Below, piece after piece: positions 1 to 54,999 of a stretch of DNA of 64,000 nt (position 1 is the stretch's first letter; every line of letters starts with the position of its first letter). Made by a program: the position numbers and the translations under genes. Source of the DNA: Mobula hypostoma (Eukaryota); NCBI RefSeq assembly GCF_963921235.1, contig NC_086097.1, forward strand, positions 36,520,001 through 36,584,000, given 5' to 3'. The notes below the pieces were generated by a model, which had not been told where the DNA came from, did no database searches, and saw only the letters and a list, made by a program, of their open reading frames with translations.

Positions 1-818
1 GGTCTTCTGGTCAGGAAGTCGAGGATCCAATTGCAGACAGAGGTACAGAAGCCCAGGTTCTGCAACTTCTCAATCAGGATTGTGGGAATGATGGTACTAA
101 ATGCTGAGCTATAGTTGATGAGACCTGGCTGGTGGCGTAGTGGCATCAGTACCGGACTTCAGGACGAAAGGTCCCAAGTTCGAATCCAGCTGGCTCCCCT
201 GCATACTTTCCATCCGTGCTGGGTTATGAGCTGGTGATCTCATCCAGCAGAAGGCAATGGAAAACCACTGTTGTAACTTGCCTCGTACACTGTTCCCCAC
301 TATGTTAGAGAGGCGTGGAGGGAAATCATCCGCTAACTGGAGAAACACCGGATGCAACGTACATATAGTCGATGAACAGCATCCTGGCGTAAGTGTTGGT
401 ATTGTCTAGGTGGTCTAAAGCCATTTGGAACCCGATTGAGATTACATCTGCCATTGACCTATTGTGGCGATGGGCAAATTGCAATGGGTCCGGGTCCTTG
501 CTGAGACAGGAGTTCAGTCTAGTCATAACCAACCTCTCAAAGCATTTCATCACTGTTGATGCAAGTGCTACCGGGCAATATTTATTAAGGCGGCCCACAT
601 TATTCTTCTTCGGCGCTGGTATAATGTTGTCTTTTTGAAGCAAGTGGGAACTTCTGTCCATAGCAGTGAGAGGTTGAAAATGTCCTTGAACTCTCACGCT
701 AATTGGTTGGCACAGGTTTTCAGAGCCTTACCAGGTACTCCATCAGGACCTTCTGCCTTACGAGGGTTCACTCTCTTTAAAGTCAGTTTAACATCGGCCT
801 CTGAGACAGAGGTCACAT
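1..818 (-). mobile_element. Rex1/Babar-type LINE RT fragment, interrupted by a SINE
   Basis: ORF 326-697 reads YCPVALASTVMKCFERLV...DPLQFAHRHNRS...TYARMLFIDY and continues as YSSAF beyond the insertion. Confidence 0.85.
122..363 (+). mobile_element. tRNA-derived SINE with RTE-type tail
   Basis: Box A TGGCGTAGTGG, box B GTTCGAATCC, tail motif GAAGGCAATGGAAAACCACT. 12-bp TSD TATAGTYGATGA at 110-121 and 364-375. Confidence 0.85.
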
Positions 819-1335: not shown

Positions 1336-2429
1336 TCCCGGAGTTACCATTGTATCGACCACGAAAGTGGTAGACAGTCTAATGTTAATGCGATCATTAT
1401 TTAGCTTGCAAAATTCACTTAGAATTTTCAAAGTTGAAAATTCAAAAGCCACATTTAATAGTATTCTTCACACAGTTTTATGAAAATTTGAGTGCTTCTA
1501 ACTCTTGGCTGATCTTGAATTGATTCTGCCTTGCTACCATGCTCAAAGTTTTAGACACCCCAAGGCTGTCCACGCACCTCTTTGTAACCACATCAGAACT
1601 CTGATAGCGATGGAGCTGATAATCTCAAATGAGTCAGCCCTTCCTGTAAGTACAGGTTCATGTTTCAAAATATATCTTGTAGCTAAGGAAAAACATTTCA
1701 TCCTCAATATTTTTTCTTGGTTGACTTTATACAGTGAAATAACAGCAGTGTTATAGAGAATAAAGTATGGCCACAAACTTAAGTTCTTCTTCCTATCCTA
1801 AATTTGTCTCATGGTATAAAAGGAATACTATGAATTGATAATCAACAAAATGTAACCAAATAATCACAAAATTTTTAGAAAAGTTTTTAACAGGGTAAAG
1901 GCAGAACTGGCGTCGAATACCCACCTGTAACCGTCCTTGTGGAACTGGTCATGGACTCCCTTGAACCGTTGCAATCATTTTAATGCATAAAGTTGGAGGA
2001 TTTTGAGCCAGTGAAAAATAAGAAATACCTTTACCATGTCAGGCTTGACTTAGAGTGGAACATGTTGGTGATGTTCCCATGTGATGCTGCCCTCTTCATT
2101 CTAGATAGCAGAGATCAGGTCTTGGAATCAATAGAAATAAAAGTCCTATTGTAAGGAAGGAGAACCAACAATATGCCAAGAGGAAGCCTCCTAATTTGCT
2201 CATATTTAATATGTAATCTGTCTGTTTGAAAGCAGAAATTTGTATTTATAAAATATTGAACACTTTGAATGAACATATACAATATACAATTGATCTGGCA
2301 TCAACAATGCAGACAGTGCAGAGTAAATACAGGCAGGGATCCGTCTTCATACCTGCCCCTTGCAGATGTTTACAAAGCTCCCTTCACAGTGATGCTTTTC
2401 CAGAAGTCCAATAGGGATAGGATAAAGCA

Positions 2430-3110
2430 GAACACTAACAATGATGATGGACAGAGGAACCTTTGGCTTCATGTCCATATTGACACAAGGCAGACTGAGG
2501 AGAAGGCATATGGCATGCTCACCTTCAAAGGTCAGGGCATAGAATATACAGTTGGGTTGTCATGTTATGATTTTATAAGACTCTAGTTGGACCACACTTG
2601 GAGTACTGAGTGCAGTTCTGGTCATCACAGCTTAGGAAGGATGTGGTTGTATTGGAGAGCATGCAGAGAATTCCCTAGGATGTTGCCTGGATTGGTGGAC
2701 CAGTTATGAGGAGGGATTGGCTAGGCAGTGTTTGTTTTCCCTGGAGTGAAGGACGCTAAGGGGGTGATCGGACAGAGAGAGATAAAATTATAAGAAGCAA
2801 AGAAAGAGTAGTCAGAAACTTTTTCCAGTAGATAGGGTATAAAACACAAGAGAGCTTAGCCTTAAGGTGAGAAATAAGGTTTTTAAAGGAAAGGGGGAAA
2901 GTTTTTTTTCACAGAGTGGTTGATATTTAGAACACACTACTCCAGGTGATGGTGGAAATAGATTCACAGTAGTCACTACGTCACAGGCAAGTTCTTAAAT
3001 TGGAACATGTTCGAAGGGTATCGACCTACTGGAGGTAAATAGGATAGAAAATTGGCATGGATGGTGGACTAAGTGCCCATTTAAGTGCTGTACAGCCCTA
3101 TGACCCTAAG
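2430..3110 (+). mobile_element. Decayed CR1 LINE 3' fragment
   Basis: Visibly similar to the 3' end of the CR1 at 12900-13612 (GGAGTACTG...GCAGTTCTGGTC, GGATGTTGCCTGG). Confidence 0.8.
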
Positions 3111-3184
3111 ACAATGAGATACAGTGTTTCATGCCATGACATTTCAGAATCTCAATATCTGATTATATGCTTGGCATGGTGCCA

Positions 3185-3510
3185 TGGCACAGCTGGTGGG
3201 ACCATTGCCTCAACGTGCCAGATACCTGGGTTCAACCGTGACCTCAGGTGCTGTCCCTGTGGAGTTTGCACATTCTTCCTGAAAGAAACCGTGTGGGTTT
3301 TCTCCAGGTGTTCCTCCTGAAAGATGAGCAAGTTCATAGGTTAATTGGTCACTGTAAATTGCCCCTAGAATATAAATAAGCAGTAAAATCTATGGGGAGT
3401 TGAGAAGTTTATGAGGAAATTTTAAAAAATAATTGAATTAATGTAGGATTCGTGAAATTTGTGGTTGATGTGGACTTGGTTGGCTAAAAGGTCTGTTTAC
3501 ACTCTCTCTC
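3185..3510 (+). mobile_element. tRNA-derived V-domain SINE
   Basis: Box B-like GGGTTCAA, core GTGGAGTTTGCACATTCT...GTGTGGGTTTTCTCC, then GGTTAATTGGTCACTGTAAATTGCCCCTAG. Confidence 0.75.
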
Positions 3511-3581
3511 CTGAGTGGTAGAACTGCAAGAACTGGTGCAGTTTAAACCTTTTAAATACAAAATATGCATTCTTTTTAATA

Positions 3582-3587
3582 TTTATT
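3582..3587 (-). promoter_or_regulatory. Candidate polyadenylation signal of the PKC gene
   Basis: AATAAA on the minus strand about 640 nt after the stop, followed by T/GT-rich sequence. No transcript evidence. Confidence 0.35.
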
Positions 3588-4227
3588 TGCCAACAGCTAT
3601 AACTTATATACACAGAACAGTTCATACTTTTCATTCCACAACTAAAATCCTCCACAGTTTATCAAAGTGATGTCTACTTCAAGCTGAACACAATGTAAAA
3701 CAGTCTGCAAGATATGCCTCCCACCCACCCTTGACCCAATGAATGAACGTGGCAATCTCAAAAGACATCCTTCTATATAAAGAAAGAAGGGATTTCTACT
3801 GAAAAGACTCAAATATAGTTTATGGAAGTGTAGAACTGTTTACTATTAGCAAATCTCGGTTTCTGTTGATAGATACACAGCTAATTAAATACCTAAACAG
3901 CTAAGTGCAAATGAAGGATGCATAATTTAATGGTCCATTGTAACAATACTTATTCATAATTGATTGCTTCATGACGGCCTAACTTCTGATATTCAAAAGA
4001 CTGGTTGGTAGAAAGATAATGGACAGTGATTCAAAGCCACTCAGTTTCACAAAGTTGCACAAACAAAAAAATCAATATAAACAGCATGCCAGTTCTCGCT
4101 TCAGTAACGGTAACGATATTGTCTGTATAAACTTTCTGCCCAACCACTCCACTTGCTTGAGGTGGGCTCTGCGATGCTGGTACTTGTGAGCTTTCCGGAA
4201 ATGTTCCCGTGCTGATGAATTTGTACT

Positions 4228-32797
<28,570 letters not shown>

Positions 32798-52400: not shown

Positions 52401-52732
52401 CTTTGATTGTCTTTGATATGTCAGAATAAAACAGCAGCTTATTATACAAAATTGGAATTGAACCAATAATCAGACAGGCCCTGACAAAGTTCAACCCAAA
52501 AGCCTCAAAGGAATATAATCTAATGTAGATTAGTATAATGTAGATTAATATAATTTAATATAGATGCAGCACAGAGCGTCATAGGAAGTCATTCCTGCCT
52601 GTGGCCATCAAACTTTACAACTCCTCCCTTGGAGGGTCAGATACCCTGAGCCAATAGGCTGGTCCTGGACTTATTTCATAATTTACTGGCATAATTTACA
52701 TATTACTATTTAACTATTTATTCCTATTTTCT

Positions 52733-52916
52733 GGCCGCTGTCACATGCAAACAGCTACGGGGAGCCACAGGTGAGAGCTGAGTGCCAGGTGGGGACCAAA
52801 GGTGGACTACCGCCTTGAAAAGTACGCGACATGTTACCCCACCAGAGGTGCTACCCCTCCCTGACACCCCATACACCCCAGGCAACGGCTTCGACAAGCC
52901 GGCTAAACCAGGTGAG
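52733..52916 (+). ncRNA. Putative HDV-like ribozyme of the element 5' end, split by the inversion in this copy
   Basis: After re-inversion: P1 GGGGTGT/ACACCCC, P2 CTCACCTG/CAGGTGAG, P3 GGC/GCC, L3 starting TCCCC, GG, P4 CGGCTT/AAGCCG, J4/2 GCTAA. Confidence 0.55.
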
Positions 52917-53299
52917 GGTAGCCGACGGGTCTCAATCCCTCGGTGAGATAGAGAGTTGTCTATCCCAGCATGTGAAGACAGACTCTGGCGGATTGAGCGG
53001 ACGAGACCAATGGAAGGTCCAACGGTCAAAAAGGCAGTCTCTGCAAGTGTCATGGAACGTGTAGAGCAGGACAAGACACAGAAGACGTCCTGGTCATCCA
53101 CTGTGCCTAGTCCCATCTCCAGCCGTCTCGACTCTGTCTTGCCACTGGATCCAGATGGGAATTGGGAAGAGAGAGTGAGGATGACGCTGCGCAACTCTCC
53201 CTCACTTAAATCCAAGTCACGCGCTAGTCTCAACACCATCAATAATGGTGTTGAGGTCTTCATCGACGTACGATGGACGAACAACAACAACAACAACAA
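52733..53299 (+). mobile_element. Non-autonomous RTE-related element with inverted 5' segment (52733-52870) and (CAA)n tail
   Basis: 9-bp TSD CTATTTTCT (52724-52732, 53300-53308). 52733-52870 is the reverse complement of the head at about 15970-16096, while 52873-53103 is colinear with 16097-16327. Confidence 0.85.
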
Positions 53300-54999
53300 C
53301 TATTTTCTATTACTATTTATTATTATTATTTCAATGACTATTACTATTTACTATTTACTAATAGTAATATTACTATTACTATTTATTATTTATGGTGCAA
53401 CTGTAACGAAAACCAATTTCCCCCGGGATCTATAATGTATGACTATGACTAATTCATGGCAGTATTAACTGAACTCCATTCTATATCTTAATTCACCTTC
53501 AAGAAACAGGAACAAAAACAGGATTGAACTTTCTTGATTTCTATGCATTCCTGGTATCAGACTGTGAGAATTAATAGCAATTCCTTAACACTCATTATCA
53601 AAGGGTAAAGAAAAAAGAAGACAAAGGGATGAGTTCATCATGGAGACTTAGGATGAAAATTGCAAATATGTGATTGAGGAGCGGAAGGACACTATTGCCA
53701 TTTTGTTTTTCAATAAAATGGTAGCTGATCTGACTCTAACCTCAGTTCACATTCCTGCCTGCTCTTTCTAGTTTTCCATATGCTTGCATATTAAGGTTCC
53801 ATCATCTTTGCCTTAAAATTGTTCAAATTTTCTGCTTCCATGAGCCTTTGAAGAAGAGAGTTCTAATAATGTATGATCCTGAGCAGAAAATAAAATCACC
53901 CAATCTTTGTCTTGAATGGGTGATACTATGAATAGTAACTCCCCCCGCATCCCCCACCACCACACACAGACTCTTCTGCAAGAAAAAAAGCATGTTTTCT
54001 ATACACAGCCTGTGGGGATTTCTCTGGATACACAGATAGATGCAGGCAAGGGTCAAAGATTTCCACTGTGCATCAGGAATTGATTATTTCCTACTAACCT
54101 ACCCCTCCAACTTTCTTCACAGTCAACACAACATCCATTCATTTAAATGGACTGGAAAATCAGAGGCCAGATGACCAATTCCAACATCAGCCCCAATGAA
54201 CTCGAGCACCAAACAGATGTCAAGGTGAGGCGGAGGGTTATAATGGAAAACGCTGGCCTCTCAATTGAACAGGAAGAGTGAAGAAACTTGCAAAATAGTT
54301 CACAGAGATGTTTAAACAATAGTTTGAAAAACTTGCTCTTGTCATGATAAAGAAGTCTTGTATGAGAATGACCAAAGGTAAAACGAGAAAAGTGCCATCC
54401 ATTCCGTGACAAAATAAAGCACTTACATCCTGAGGAATTCTTTCTCCATAGTAACCTTGTGCATCAAACAGTGAACCTGGTTTGTGCATAGCCCATGGCT
54501 AGCATATTTAAAATCAGTAGTAATGGAAAGTAACAGCATTAATTTATAATTGTCGTACACTGAAGAGCTGCTACTTAACAACACTCATTTGAGCATTCAA
54601 TATCATGACTAGTCAGATTTATCACCAGCAAGTGAATAATCTAAATATAACCCTAGTGAGTAAATGTGCAAGGCATTTGACAAGAGACAGGGAAAACTGC
54701 TGGTAAGGTCACAGAGGAGTCATGTTCTCAATGAATGGTGGAATAGTTTTGATTGTCAATTAGCTTACTCCTGTTCTTAAGACACAGATTAAAACCAACC
54801 ATCTAAAGAAGCCATGGATAAGTGAGCTGTTTCAAATTGGAATGCTCTCTCCAACAATGTTCATCATCGTTTGAAAAAGAGGCCACATGAGCAGGCAAGC
54901 AAGACTAACTGGTAATTCTTTCAAACAGATGGTACAGTCTCGTTTTGCTGTGTAATGCATGACCGTATGGTGTGGTACTTTGTCATACAGATTCGACAG

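What the first reader, a model, noticed from the sequence alone, without database searches (positions are those of the whole stretch)
52733..52916. HDV-like ribozyme fold with an expanded L3 at the 5' end of an RTE-related retroposon
Seen: flipping 52733-52870 back and joining it to 52873 gives GGGGTGT (P1), a long J1/2, CTCACCTG (P2), T, GGC (P3), TCCCCGTA-GCTGT..ACAGC-G (L3 with an extra hairpin), GCC (P3'), ACACCCC (P1'), AGG, CAA, CGGCTT-CGAC-AAGCCG (P4), GCTAA with candidate catalytic C at 52903, AC, CAGGTGAG (P2'). The sibling at 16056-16140 has the same order, and its P4 has a different sequence (CGCCT/AGACG) that still mostly pairs. Known: HDV-like ribozymes process the 5' ends of R2, RTE and L1Tc/ingi-type non-LTR elements. 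Inference: this family carries a ribozyme variant whose hairpin inserted in L3 would be missed by standard descriptors.
Basis: partly seen in the sequence, partly recalled or inferred. Interest (0 to 1): 0.85.

Follow-up and report, generated by a model that had tools for sequence, protein, structure and literature searches.

The report
Ribozyme-headed retroposon with flipped front
A short mobile element present in thousands of copies in this animal genome seems to start with a self-cutting RNA of the hepatitis-delta type that carries an unusual extra hairpin, but the copy in this window has its front end flipped and is therefore broken.

Summary
Window 52733-53299 is one copy of a ~565-bp non-coding, SINE-like retroposon (family A), flanked by a 9-bp target-site duplication. 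Its first ~147 nt are inverted.

The fold passes an all-Watson-Crick HDV-type descriptor that 0 of 19,805 shuffles pass. P4 and a J1/2 hairpin covary between three families (A, B, C). P1, P2, P3 and P1.1 never vary, so they cannot be tested. Rfam gives only a weak hit (13-14 bits against a threshold of 44).

Two corrections:
- Copies begin 9 nt upstream, at a duplicated GGGGUGU. That is the likely P1 and cleavage site.
- No link to RTE was found. No reverse-transcriptase partner was identified.

The inversion looks like twin priming joined through P1/P1' complementarity. A second, independent insertion has the same junction. Self-cleavage is untested. I rate this a new variant of a known kind, of moderate interest.

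The parts
52724..52732 (.). left target-site duplication CTATTTTCT
   Evidence: The same 9 nt recur at 53300-53308, directly after the (AAC)n tail.
52733..52872 (-). inverted 5' segment of the element. Read on the minus strand it holds the internal GGGGTGT (52864-52870), the J1/2 domain, P2 5' strand (52768-52775), P3 GGC (52764-52766), L3 TCCCCGTA (52756-52763), the L3 hairpin (52737-52755) and P3' GCC (52733-52735).
   Evidence: BLAST of an intact copy: positions 8-157 match window 52880-52732 on the reverse strand at 96%. Sequence read.
52871..52879 (-). reverse complement of the 9-nt leader GGGGTGTAT, the true 5' end of the element. It overlaps P1' on the + strand, giving a 7-nt junction microhomology.
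   Evidence: An identical junction occurs in an independent insertion, L085.
52873..52879 (+). P1' ACACCCC
   Evidence: Complementary to either GGGGUGU repeat in intact copies.
52880..52885 (+). J1/4: AGG CAA. In most family-A copies it reads GGG CAA, and the first two G pair with CC of L3 (P1.1). This copy has A at 52880.
   Evidence: columns 174-179.
52886..52901 (+). P4 hairpin CGGCTT-cgac-AAGCCG
   Evidence: Predicted in the minimum-energy fold. Three pairs covary between families.
52902..52908 (+). J4/2 GCTAAAC, with the candidate catalytic C at 52903
   Evidence: Aligns to GGCUAA of Rfam RF02682. The C is present in 62 of 63 aligned copies.
52909..52918 (+). P2' CAGGTGAGGG
   Evidence: P2 is predicted in the minimum-energy fold of an intact copy.
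52919..53299 (+). rest of the family-A element, ending in a 3' hairpin, ...CGATGGACGAAC and an (AAC)n tail
   Evidence: 95% identical to intact copies over this part. Tail read.
53300..53308 (.). right target-site duplication CTATTTTCT
15972..16480 (+). sibling: a family-B copy (~92% to other B copies) lacking the first 24 nt. It has the HDV order from P2 (16056) to P2' (16140).

Best explanation
Window 52733-53299 is a dead, 5'-inverted insertion of a short non-coding non-LTR retroposon (family A; families B and C share its first ~380 nt). In intact copies the first ~195 nt of the RNA fold as an HDV-like double-pseudoknot ribozyme. P1 is formed by the terminal GGGGUGU with ACACCCC. A ~97-nt J1/2 folds as its own domain, closed by a 10-bp helix that hides a second, internal GGGGUGU. 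P2 is 8-10 bp and P3 is 3 bp. L3 reads UCCNNGUA, then a 4-5 bp hairpin, then G. P1.1 pairs CC with GG. P4 is 6 bp, and J4/2 reads G-C-N-A-A-A with the general-acid C. Inferred mechanism: the element has no promoter of its own and is transcribed as part of longer host transcripts. The ribozyme cuts just 5' of the first G, which gives the RNA the exact 5' end that is then copied into new insertions. In the window copy, and in one independent copy, target-primed reverse transcription used two primers (twin priming). The two cDNA ends annealed through the 7-nt P1/P1' complementarity, which inverted the first ~147 nt. Shown: the anatomy, the family structure, the 5' ends of copies, covariation in P4 and J1/2, and the two inversion junctions. 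Inferred: self-cleavage, co-transcription, and tolerance of the L3 hairpin.
For: (1) Collinear HDV order in 25 of 29 family-A and 29 of 29 family-B loci other than the window's own. (2) An intact family-A head passes an all-Watson-Crick descriptor that 0 of 19,805 shuffles pass. (3) On 63 aligned copies, P4 pairs 181-194 (CG 24, GC 20), 183-192 (CG 30, UA 22) and 184-191 (CG 28, UA 22, UG 10) change on both sides between families. So does J1/2 hairpin pair 66-82 (UA 39, CG 17). Cells with a change on both sides number 92, against 32.4 +/- 8.0 in shuffles (0 of 500 reach it), and 8-35 with slid partners. (4) Between families, L3 varies only at the two positions that also vary in HDV-like ribozymes (UCCCCG versus UCCAAG). 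J4/2 varies only at N of C-N-A-A. The C is kept in 62 of 63 copies. (5) The only Rfam family hit at E<=10 in the window region is an HDV family (RF02682), aligned over CAGGCAACGG...CCGGCUAA. On an intact copy RF02682 is again the best hit, with one weaker unrelated hit, snoRNA sR4 (E 9.8, opposite strand). (6) 5' ends, from my hand sort: of 35 loci with a direct repeat of 7 nt or more, 10 start exactly at the 9-nt leader, 8 start inside its G-run (ambiguous with the repeat), 1 lacks one G, 8 carry 1-3 extra nt, 2 are truncated, 6 are unclear, and 0 start at the internal repeat. (7) The minimum-energy fold pairs the internal GGGUGUCAGG with CCUGGCACUC, predicts P2 and P4, and leaves the leader free. 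All between-family changes in that helix keep pairing. (8) Two independent insertions with different target-site duplications share the junction ...GACACCCC-AT-ACACCCC-AGG. This places the template RNA's 5' end at the first G. (9) TTTT (A) or TTTTT (B) inside J1/2, no tRNA and no other Rfam family at E<=1 argue against a Pol III SINE head. (10) Long J1/2 (P1 and P1' 23 to over 700 nt apart) and duplicated P1 sequences are described for R2 ribozymes (PMC3774820, sections 16 and 18 read).
Against: No cleavage data exist. P1, P2, P3 and P1.1 are identical in all three families, so the pseudoknots that define the class have no covariation support. The Rfam hit is far below threshold (14.3 and 13.2 bits against 44; E 4.6 and 4.9), covers only the 3' half, and is absent for family B and for the sibling. 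Folding energy of the head is not unusual (z = -0.64; 58 of 200 shuffles fold as well). RNAalifold does not recover the fold. A loose descriptor is met by 2-3% of shuffles. Between-family conservation is only modestly concentrated in the core (8 of 60 core columns vary against 40 of 136 others, p = 0.019), and long J1/2 blocks are equally invariant. A 28-nt L3 is outside anything I could find described. A transcription start at the first G would explain the 5' ends equally well. Three of 20 old family-C copies share a deletion that removes J4/2 and P2'. If that is a subfamily, the ribozyme was dispensable for it.
Confidence: 0.6

Rival explanations
1. One reading: a real HDV-like ribozyme, but P1 is the internal GGGGUGU (window 52864-52870, minus strand) and cleavage occurs 9 nt inside the element.
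For: The internal repeat pairs with ACACCCC as well as the leader does. It gives a shorter J1/2. The R2 literature notes that either of two P1 copies can be used (PMC3774820, section 18).
Against: Cleavage there removes the leader, yet the leader is kept in families A, B and C. 0 of 35 loci with a direct repeat start at the internal repeat, and every 5'-shortened copy still has at least the AT in front of it. The minimum-energy fold locks the internal repeat into a 10-bp helix. Both twin-priming junctions contain the leader.
Confidence: 0.1
2. A structured but non-catalytic 5' region, for example a binding site for the partner's reverse transcriptase or an internal Pol II promoter. The 5' end would be set by transcription initiation, and the HDV-like look would be a remnant or a coincidence of a G/C-rich, highly paired head.
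For: Long invariant blocks lie outside the ribozyme core. There is no covariation in the class-defining helices. The Rfam score is sub-threshold. The L3 size is unprecedented. 5' ends at one G fit a start site as well. L1Tc's Pr77 shows that promoter and ribozyme can coexist (PMC3383444, abstract from the search listing).
Against: The whole core matches at once: P1' directly follows P3', CC/GG forms P1.1, L3 has U...G, J4/2 has C-N-A-A, and all helices are Watson-Crick. No shuffle of 19,805 reaches this. The variable positions are those that vary in known HDV-like ribozymes.
Confidence: 0.25
3. A chance resemblance produced by joining two strands of an unrelated inverted repeat.
For: In the window itself the motif exists only after a mental flip. 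2-3% of shuffles meet a loose descriptor.
Against: Intact copies carry it on one strand: 25 of 29 family-A loci and 29 of 29 family-B loci. The window copy's inversion lies inside one target-site duplication. The strict descriptor is met by 0 of 19,805 shuffles.
Confidence: 0.05

Closest known systems
R2 retrotransposon HDV-like ribozymes (Eickbush & Eickbush 2010; Eickbush, Burke & Eickbush 2013, PMC3774820, sections 12, 16 and 18 read)
   Same: A ribozyme of about 180-200 nt forms the 5' end of a non-LTR element. It frees the element from a co-transcript. J1/2 is very long (P1 to P1' 23 to over 700 nt). Duplicated P1 sequences occur, and use of the upstream one preserves the duplication. A G is conserved in L3. 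5' junctions vary when cleavage is at the element's own end.
   Different: R2 is autonomous and specific to rDNA. This element is a dispersed, non-coding unit of about 565 bp with ordinary target-site duplications. R2 L3 loops are short, whereas here L3 is 26-28 nt with a hairpin.
R2 SIDEs and trypanosomatid NARTc/SIDER elements: non-autonomous elements that keep the LINE's 5' HDV-like ribozyme (PMC3414825 and PMC3383444, abstracts from the search listing; PMC4035085, passages)
   Same: Short, internally deleted or non-coding elements keep a 5' HDV-like ribozyme and a 3' end recognised by a partner's reverse transcriptase.
   Different: For those, the parent LINE is known. Here no parent was found, and three families share the head with different 3' bodies.
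HDV-like ribozymes of RTE and Baggins elements (Ruminski et al. 2011: not held, recalled; cited in passages of PMC6765202 and PMC7761336)
   Same: 5'-terminal processing of non-LTR elements that lack promoters.
Rfam RF02682, the HDV ribozyme of Faecalibacterium prausnitzii (drz-Fpra-1)
   Same: Best and only HDV model hit. P1'-AGGCAACGG...CCGGCUAA aligns nearly base for base, and the first P1 pair is G-C.
   Different: 13-14 bits against a gathering score of 44. The model has a short J1/2 and a short L3. Family B is not hit at all.
Twin priming of LINE-1 (Ostertag & Kazazian 2001; recalled, not looked up)
   Same: The 5' part is inverted within one target-site duplication, with junction microhomology and a small deletion in one case (L085).
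   Different: The microhomology here is the ribozyme's own P1/P1' complementarity, so the junction falls at the same base in two independent events.

Membership tests
HDV-like self-cleaving ribozymes | Nested double pseudoknot in the order P1-J1/2-P2-P3-L3-P3'-P1'-J1/4-P4-J4/2-P2' | tested here: met
   Intact copies have it on one strand. The strict descriptor is passed by the real sequence and by 0 of 19,805 shuffles. This shows sequence compatibility only.
HDV-like self-cleaving ribozymes | P1 of about 7 bp starting with G at the cleavage site, with P1' directly 3' of P3' | tested here: met
   GGGGUGU pairs with ACACCCC over 7 Watson-Crick pairs, and GCC abuts ACACCCC. Two candidate P1 5' strands exist.
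HDV-like self-cleaving ribozymes | Short single-stranded L3 (about 7-8 nt; size recalled, not from a call) carrying the conserved U and G | tested here: not met
   The 5' six nt fit (UCCCCG or UCCAAG). U is kept in 61 of 63 copies and G in 61 of 63. But L3 is 26-28 nt with a 4-5 bp hairpin in all families.
HDV-like self-cleaving ribozymes | P1.1: two L3 nucleotides pair with the two nucleotides after P1' | tested here: met
   CC pairs with GG in the majority sequence of all three families. The pair is intact in 46 of 63 copies. The window copy has A at 52880.
HDV-like self-cleaving ribozymes | Catalytic C in J4/2 | tested here: inconclusive
   A C in the context G-C-N-A-A is present in 62 of 63 copies. 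A role in catalysis cannot be tested by computation.
HDV-like self-cleaving ribozymes | Covariation supporting the helices | tested here: inconclusive
   P4 has 3 family-level compensatory pairs (4 pairs in the tool's count) and the J1/2 hairpin has 1 (2 in the tool's count). P1, P2, P3 and P1.1 do not differ between families.
HDV-like self-cleaving ribozymes | Score at or above the gathering threshold of an Rfam HDV model | tested here: not met
   0 hits at gathering. RF02682 scores 14.3 and 13.2 bits against 44. No hit for family B or the sibling.
HDV-like self-cleaving ribozymes | Mg2+-dependent self-cleavage giving a 5'-OH product | not testable with these tools
   Only assembled contigs were available, with no raw RNA reads.
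RTE-clade retrotransposon or RTE-mobilised SINE | RTE-type endonuclease/reverse-transcriptase ORF, or a 3' tail shared with an RTE LINE | tested here: inconclusive
   No such ORF lies in or next to the element. The family-A ORF has no relatives among longer proteins. The tails were found only on head-bearing copies, plus one headless fragment at window 239-361. No repeat library was available.
Twin-priming 5' inversion | Inverted 5' segment and direct 3' segment inside one target-site duplication, joined at a microhomology | tested here: met
   Target-site duplication CTATTTTCT, with a 7-nt junction overlap. A second event with duplication CTTATTTTGAACTT has the same junction and lacks about 13 nt.

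The most novel reading that the evidence does not exclude
A vertebrate-type genome holds a superfamily of ribozyme-headed, SINE-like retroposons (at least three families; first-look candidate counts 1,542 to 5,821 per query, all lower bounds). Their 5' ends are made by a structurally expanded HDV-like ribozyme with a hairpin grafted into the active-site loop L3, a separately folded ~97-nt J1/2 domain and a duplicated P1. The ribozyme's P1 complementarity also acts at the cDNA level, steering recurrent 5' inversions to one exact junction. If the L3 hairpin is tolerated or needed, standard HDV descriptors and covariance models are missing a class of ribozymes.
Probability: 0.4. Interest if true: 0.7.

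Novelty: new variant of a known kind. Interest (0 to 1): 0.55.

Why it matters
HDV-like ribozymes are found with descriptors and models that assume a short L3, which lines the active site. A naturally successful family with a hairpin inserted there would widen the known tolerance of the fold. It would also suggest that current searches under-count these ribozymes, as the failed Rfam scans here show. In addition it would add an abundant, non-autonomous, dispersed element from a large animal genome to the list of retroelements that set their 5' end by self-cleavage. The two inversion junctions are a rare DNA-level record of where the template RNA began. If the motif turns out not to cleave, the finding reduces to an ordinary SINE-like repeat with a structured head.

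Tried and rejected
- Rfam at curated thresholds on the whole window: nothing.
- searched the wrong part of a minus-strand locus and says nothing about the element.
- RNAalifold on 63 copies did not recover the fold. It cannot model pseudoknots and proposed the internal-repeat helix instead.
- Folding energy z-score is not significant.
- tRNA origin of the head: 0 genes in 3 loci.
- LINE partner:
  - no reverse transcriptase next to the tail-B-like fragment at window 239-361;
  - the 'shorter-matching' family-C copies turned out to be ~520-bp elements as well;
  - the tails occur only on head-bearing copies in about 200 kb of fetched flanks;
  - the tail motif has no further good match in the window;
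  - a protein search with the 93-codon family-A ORF among longer proteins gave 241 candidates, none at E<=0.01.
- RNA evidence: no RNA holder listed. The four runs laid were contigs only, with no places where molecules begin or end, so they give no information on the RNA 5' end.
- Literature on a hairpin or insertion in L3 of HDV-like ribozymes: no paper in the library joins 'HDV-like' with the five L3-insertion phrases searched. The search gave nothing relevant. The search for HDV-like plus shark/lamprey/coelacanth terms listed no relevant paper in its top 15. Webb 2009, Webb & Luptak 2011 and Ruminski 2011 are not held, so their descriptors and any L3 variants in them were not seen.
- Alternative P3 made from the hairpin stem: rejected, because it leaves 4 nt between P3' and P1' and no CC for P1.1.
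- First run of the shuffle test timed out. It was rerun smaller.

Full report
**What is in the window**

The window lies in a 3.48-Gb, 200-contig assembly. Bases 52733-53299 are one copy of a short interspersed element. It is flanked by the 9-nt direct repeat CTATTTTCT (52724-52732 and 53300-53308) and ends in ...CGATGGACGAAC(AAC)n.

Searching the genome with its 3' part gave 2,093 first-look candidates. The 40 that were scored were 96-100% identical to the query. I call this family A; it is about 565 bp long.

Of the 29 other family-A loci fetched, 25 are full length and 4 are 5'-truncated. In all 25 the first ~150 nt lie in the opposite orientation to the window copy. Window 52880-52732 matches positions 8-157 of an intact copy on the reverse strand at 96%. 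Window 52873-53287 matches positions 157-572 directly at 95%.

**Anatomy of the intact head**

- 5'-GGGGUGU-AU-GGGGUGUC, followed by about 85 further nt of J1/2
- CUCACCUG (P2)
- U
- GGC (P3)
- UCCCCGUA, the hairpin GCUGU-uugcaugcg-ACAGC, then G (together L3)
- GCC (P3')
- ACACCCC (P1')
- GG (P1.1), G, CAA
- CGGCUU-cgac-AAGCCG (P4)
- GCUAAA
- CCAGGUGAGGG (P2')

This is the HDV order. P1' directly abuts P3'. CC of L3 faces the GG after P1'. L3 has the U...G pair of positions, and J4/2 has C-N-A-A.

**Related families**

The sibling in the window (15972-16480) belongs to family B. This family is about 530 bp, with 2,617 candidates. The 29 fetched copies are 88-91% identical to the sibling, and all 29 are full length. 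The sibling itself lacks the first 24 nt.

An older family C turned up in a flank. It has 5,821 candidates at 72-78% identity, and 20 heads were fetched. Its body is about 520 bp.

The three families share the first ~380 nt at about 80% identity and have different 3' bodies. Their extreme 3' ends resemble each other: GATGGACGAAC, GATGGACAACC and GATGCGACCTAAC.

**Is the fold more than chance?**

I wrote a descriptor after seeing the structure, so it is post hoc.

| Descriptor | Requirements | Shuffles passing |
|---|---|---|
| Loose | G-U allowed; P1 7 bp, P2 7 bp, P3 3 bp, P1.1 2 bp, P4 at least 4 bp, C in J4/2 | 525 of 17,257 (family A head); 339 of 14,905 (family B head) |
| Loose plus U and G in L3 | as above | 31 (A); 18 (B) |
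| Strict | all Watson-Crick; P1 7 bp, P2 8 bp, P3 3 bp, P1.1 2 bp, P4 6 bp | 0 of 19,805 |

The loose figures are and the strict figure. The real family-A copy L023 passes the strict version. The single family-B copy tested (L051) failed even the loose version, because that copy carries mutations in P2 and P4.

Rfam results are weak:
- Nothing at gathering thresholds in the window.
- With permissive settings the only hit in the window region is RF02682, the HDV ribozyme of F. prausnitzii, at 14.3 bits and E 4.6. On an intact copy RF02682 is again the best hit, at 13.2 bits and E 4.9; a second, weaker hit there (snoRNA sR4, 9.8 bits, E 9.8, opposite strand) looks like noise. The gathering score is 44. 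The alignment covers P1'-AGGCAACGG...CCGGCUAA.
- Family B and the sibling give no hit.

**Covariation**

I aligned 63 heads:
- 22 of the 25 full family-A copies. L004, L027 and L028 were dropped for internal deletions.
- All 29 family-B copies.
- 12 of 21 family-C copies. L067, L069, L070, L071, L074, L075, L077, L078 and L080 were dropped for deletions between P1' and P2'.

Copies decay neutrally, so only differences between family founders carry information.

- P4 is CGGCUU/AAGCCG in A and CCGUCU/AGACGG in B. The majority line for C reads CCACUU/AGGCAG; I infer CCGCUU/AGGCGG as its ancestral form, the differences being CpG decay. That gives three pairs changed on both sides, with C holding the U-G intermediate.
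- The J1/2 inner hairpin changes C-G to U-A at pair 66-82.
- Cells with changes on both sides number 92, against 32.4 +/- 8.0 in shuffles (0 of 500 reach it) and 8-35 for slid partners.
- P1, P2, P3 and P1.1 are the same in all families, so they are neither supported nor contradicted.
- Between-family differences are somewhat rarer in core columns (8 of 60) than elsewhere (40 of 136; Fisher p = 0.019). Long J1/2 blocks are just as invariant.
- The L3 hairpin is kept as a 5-bp stem with a 9-nt loop in A and C, and as a 4-bp stem with a 9-nt loop in B.

Among the aligned copies, all core pairs plus the U, G and C survive in 13 of 22 family-A, 5 of 29 family-B and 0 of 12 family-C copies.

**Where does the RNA start?**

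A script looked for direct repeats in 58 loci. Seven had no anchor, and 35 had a repeat of 7 nt or more. Sorting those 35 by hand:

| 5' boundary | Loci |
|---|---|
| Repeat abuts the full 9-nt leader | 10 |
| Boundary inside the leader's G-run (repeat ends in G) | 8 |
| Lacks one G | 1 |
| 1-3 extra nt | 8 |
| Truncated | 2 |
| Unclear | 6 |
| Abuts the internal repeat | 0 |

Either repeat can pair with ACACCCC. However, cleavage at the internal one would delete a leader that is inherited. The minimum-energy fold also pairs the internal GGGUGUCAGG with CCUGGCACUC as a 10-bp stem closing the J1/2 domain, and leaves the leader single-stranded. Between-family changes in that stem are all U-A/U-G exchanges.

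The R2 literature describes this situation: two P1 copies, where use of the upstream one preserves the duplication, and P1 to P1' distances of 23 to over 700 nt (PMC3774820, section 18).

**The inversion**

The inverted segment and the direct segment lie inside one target-site duplication. They overlap by the 7 nt ACACCCC, which is both P1' and the complement of the RNA's first 7 nt.

A genome search with the junction found one more full-length match among the 40 candidates scored, out of 1,542. That copy (L085) has a different target-site duplication, CTTATTTTGAACTT. Its inner breakpoint differs, with about 13 nt missing. Its junction is identical...GACACCCC-AT-ACACCCC-AGG.

This fits twin priming, a mechanism I recall from LINE-1 work. 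A second cDNA primed inside the RNA runs to the RNA's 5' end. Its 3' end, ...ACACCCC, anneals to the GGGGTGT that the first cDNA made when copying P1'. Both events therefore mark the template's 5' end at the first G of the leader.

**Why a ribozyme rather than a promoter?**

- The head holds TTTT (A) or TTTTT (B), which would stop Pol III.
- It has no tRNA and no other Rfam family scoring better than E about 10.

These points argue against a classical SINE head. They do not exclude a Pol II start at the first G. Public runs gave only assembled contigs and no listed RNA holder, so the RNA's 5' chemistry could not be examined.

Contigs from runs of four coded organisms do carry the family. They include both L3 variants, seen as C>A at L016 positions 1473 and 1474.

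**The RTE label**

The element has no reverse transcriptase or endonuclease. Family A has a 93-codon ORF running into the (CAA)n tail, open in 21 of 29 copies. It has no relatives among longer proteins, and the frame is not kept in family B. No LINE sharing the head or the tails was found in the sequence I could fetch. The label is therefore unsupported, not disproved.

**Compared with what is known**

HDV-like ribozymes at the 5' ends of R2, RTE, Baggins and L1Tc elements, and of their non-autonomous derivatives, are established (PMC6765202 and PMC7761336, passages read; PMC3774820, sections read; PMC4035085, passages read). Large J1/2 inserts and variable P4 are normal for them.

What I could not find described is a hairpin inside L3 (searches; three key papers are not held). 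From memory of the HDV crystal structures, the last L3 nucleotides point outward and one of them can be deleted, so an insertion there is plausible. That is recall, not a test.

I did not examine it.

**Verdict**

The element works like, and probably is, an HDV-like ribozyme-headed retroposon. Membership is not proven: the class-defining helices lack covariation, L3 fails the standard form, and no cleavage data exist. Confidence in an active (ancestral) ribozyme with the leader as P1 is 0.6.

Noticed in passing
window 53022-53299; L023:1313-1591 (-): Family A carries a 93-codon ORF from an ATG about 285 nt into the element to the (CAA)n tail, with no stop codon. It is open in 21 of 29 copies. 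It has no relatives among longer proteins and the frame is not kept in family B.
   Followed up: partly
window 15955-15985: The family-B sibling's 5' end reads CTAGACAC-TAGAGGGTAGC. CTAGACAC is the reverse complement of the canonical GTGTCTAG, so this copy may carry a tiny 5' inversion around the CTAG palindrome instead of the leader and P1.
   Followed up: no
window 239-361: A fragment 77% identical to the 3' body of family B, with no ribozyme head upstream and no reverse transcriptase in the 10 kb before it.
   Followed up: partly
L067, L074, L077 (family C): Three of 20 old family-C copies share one deletion between two GGCGG repeats. It removes J4/2 and P2'. The stretch after P2' is deletion-prone between two GGTGAG repeats in many copies. 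This is either a ribozyme-less subfamily or recurrent slippage.
   Followed up: no
L085 (G000:C21:1717950-1718800), minus strand: The second 5'-inverted copy has another short element with a tRNA-like start (GCCTGGTGACGTAGTGG...GGTCCTGAGTTCGAATCC) inserted in its 3' hairpin.
   Followed up: no
window 9836-58536 (8 sites, family D5): A ~61-nt motif ...GATGCTGCCTGACCTGCTGAGTTCCTCCAGCA... recurs 8 times. It is probably the core of another interspersed repeat family.
   Followed up: no
window 8345-8800: A long purine-rich (GGAGG/GGGGA)n low-complexity tract.
   Followed up: no
window 31509-31660 and 31729-31880: A 152-nt inverted repeat, 96% complementary, with arms 68 nt apart (pair I4). Its nature was not examined.
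   Followed up: no
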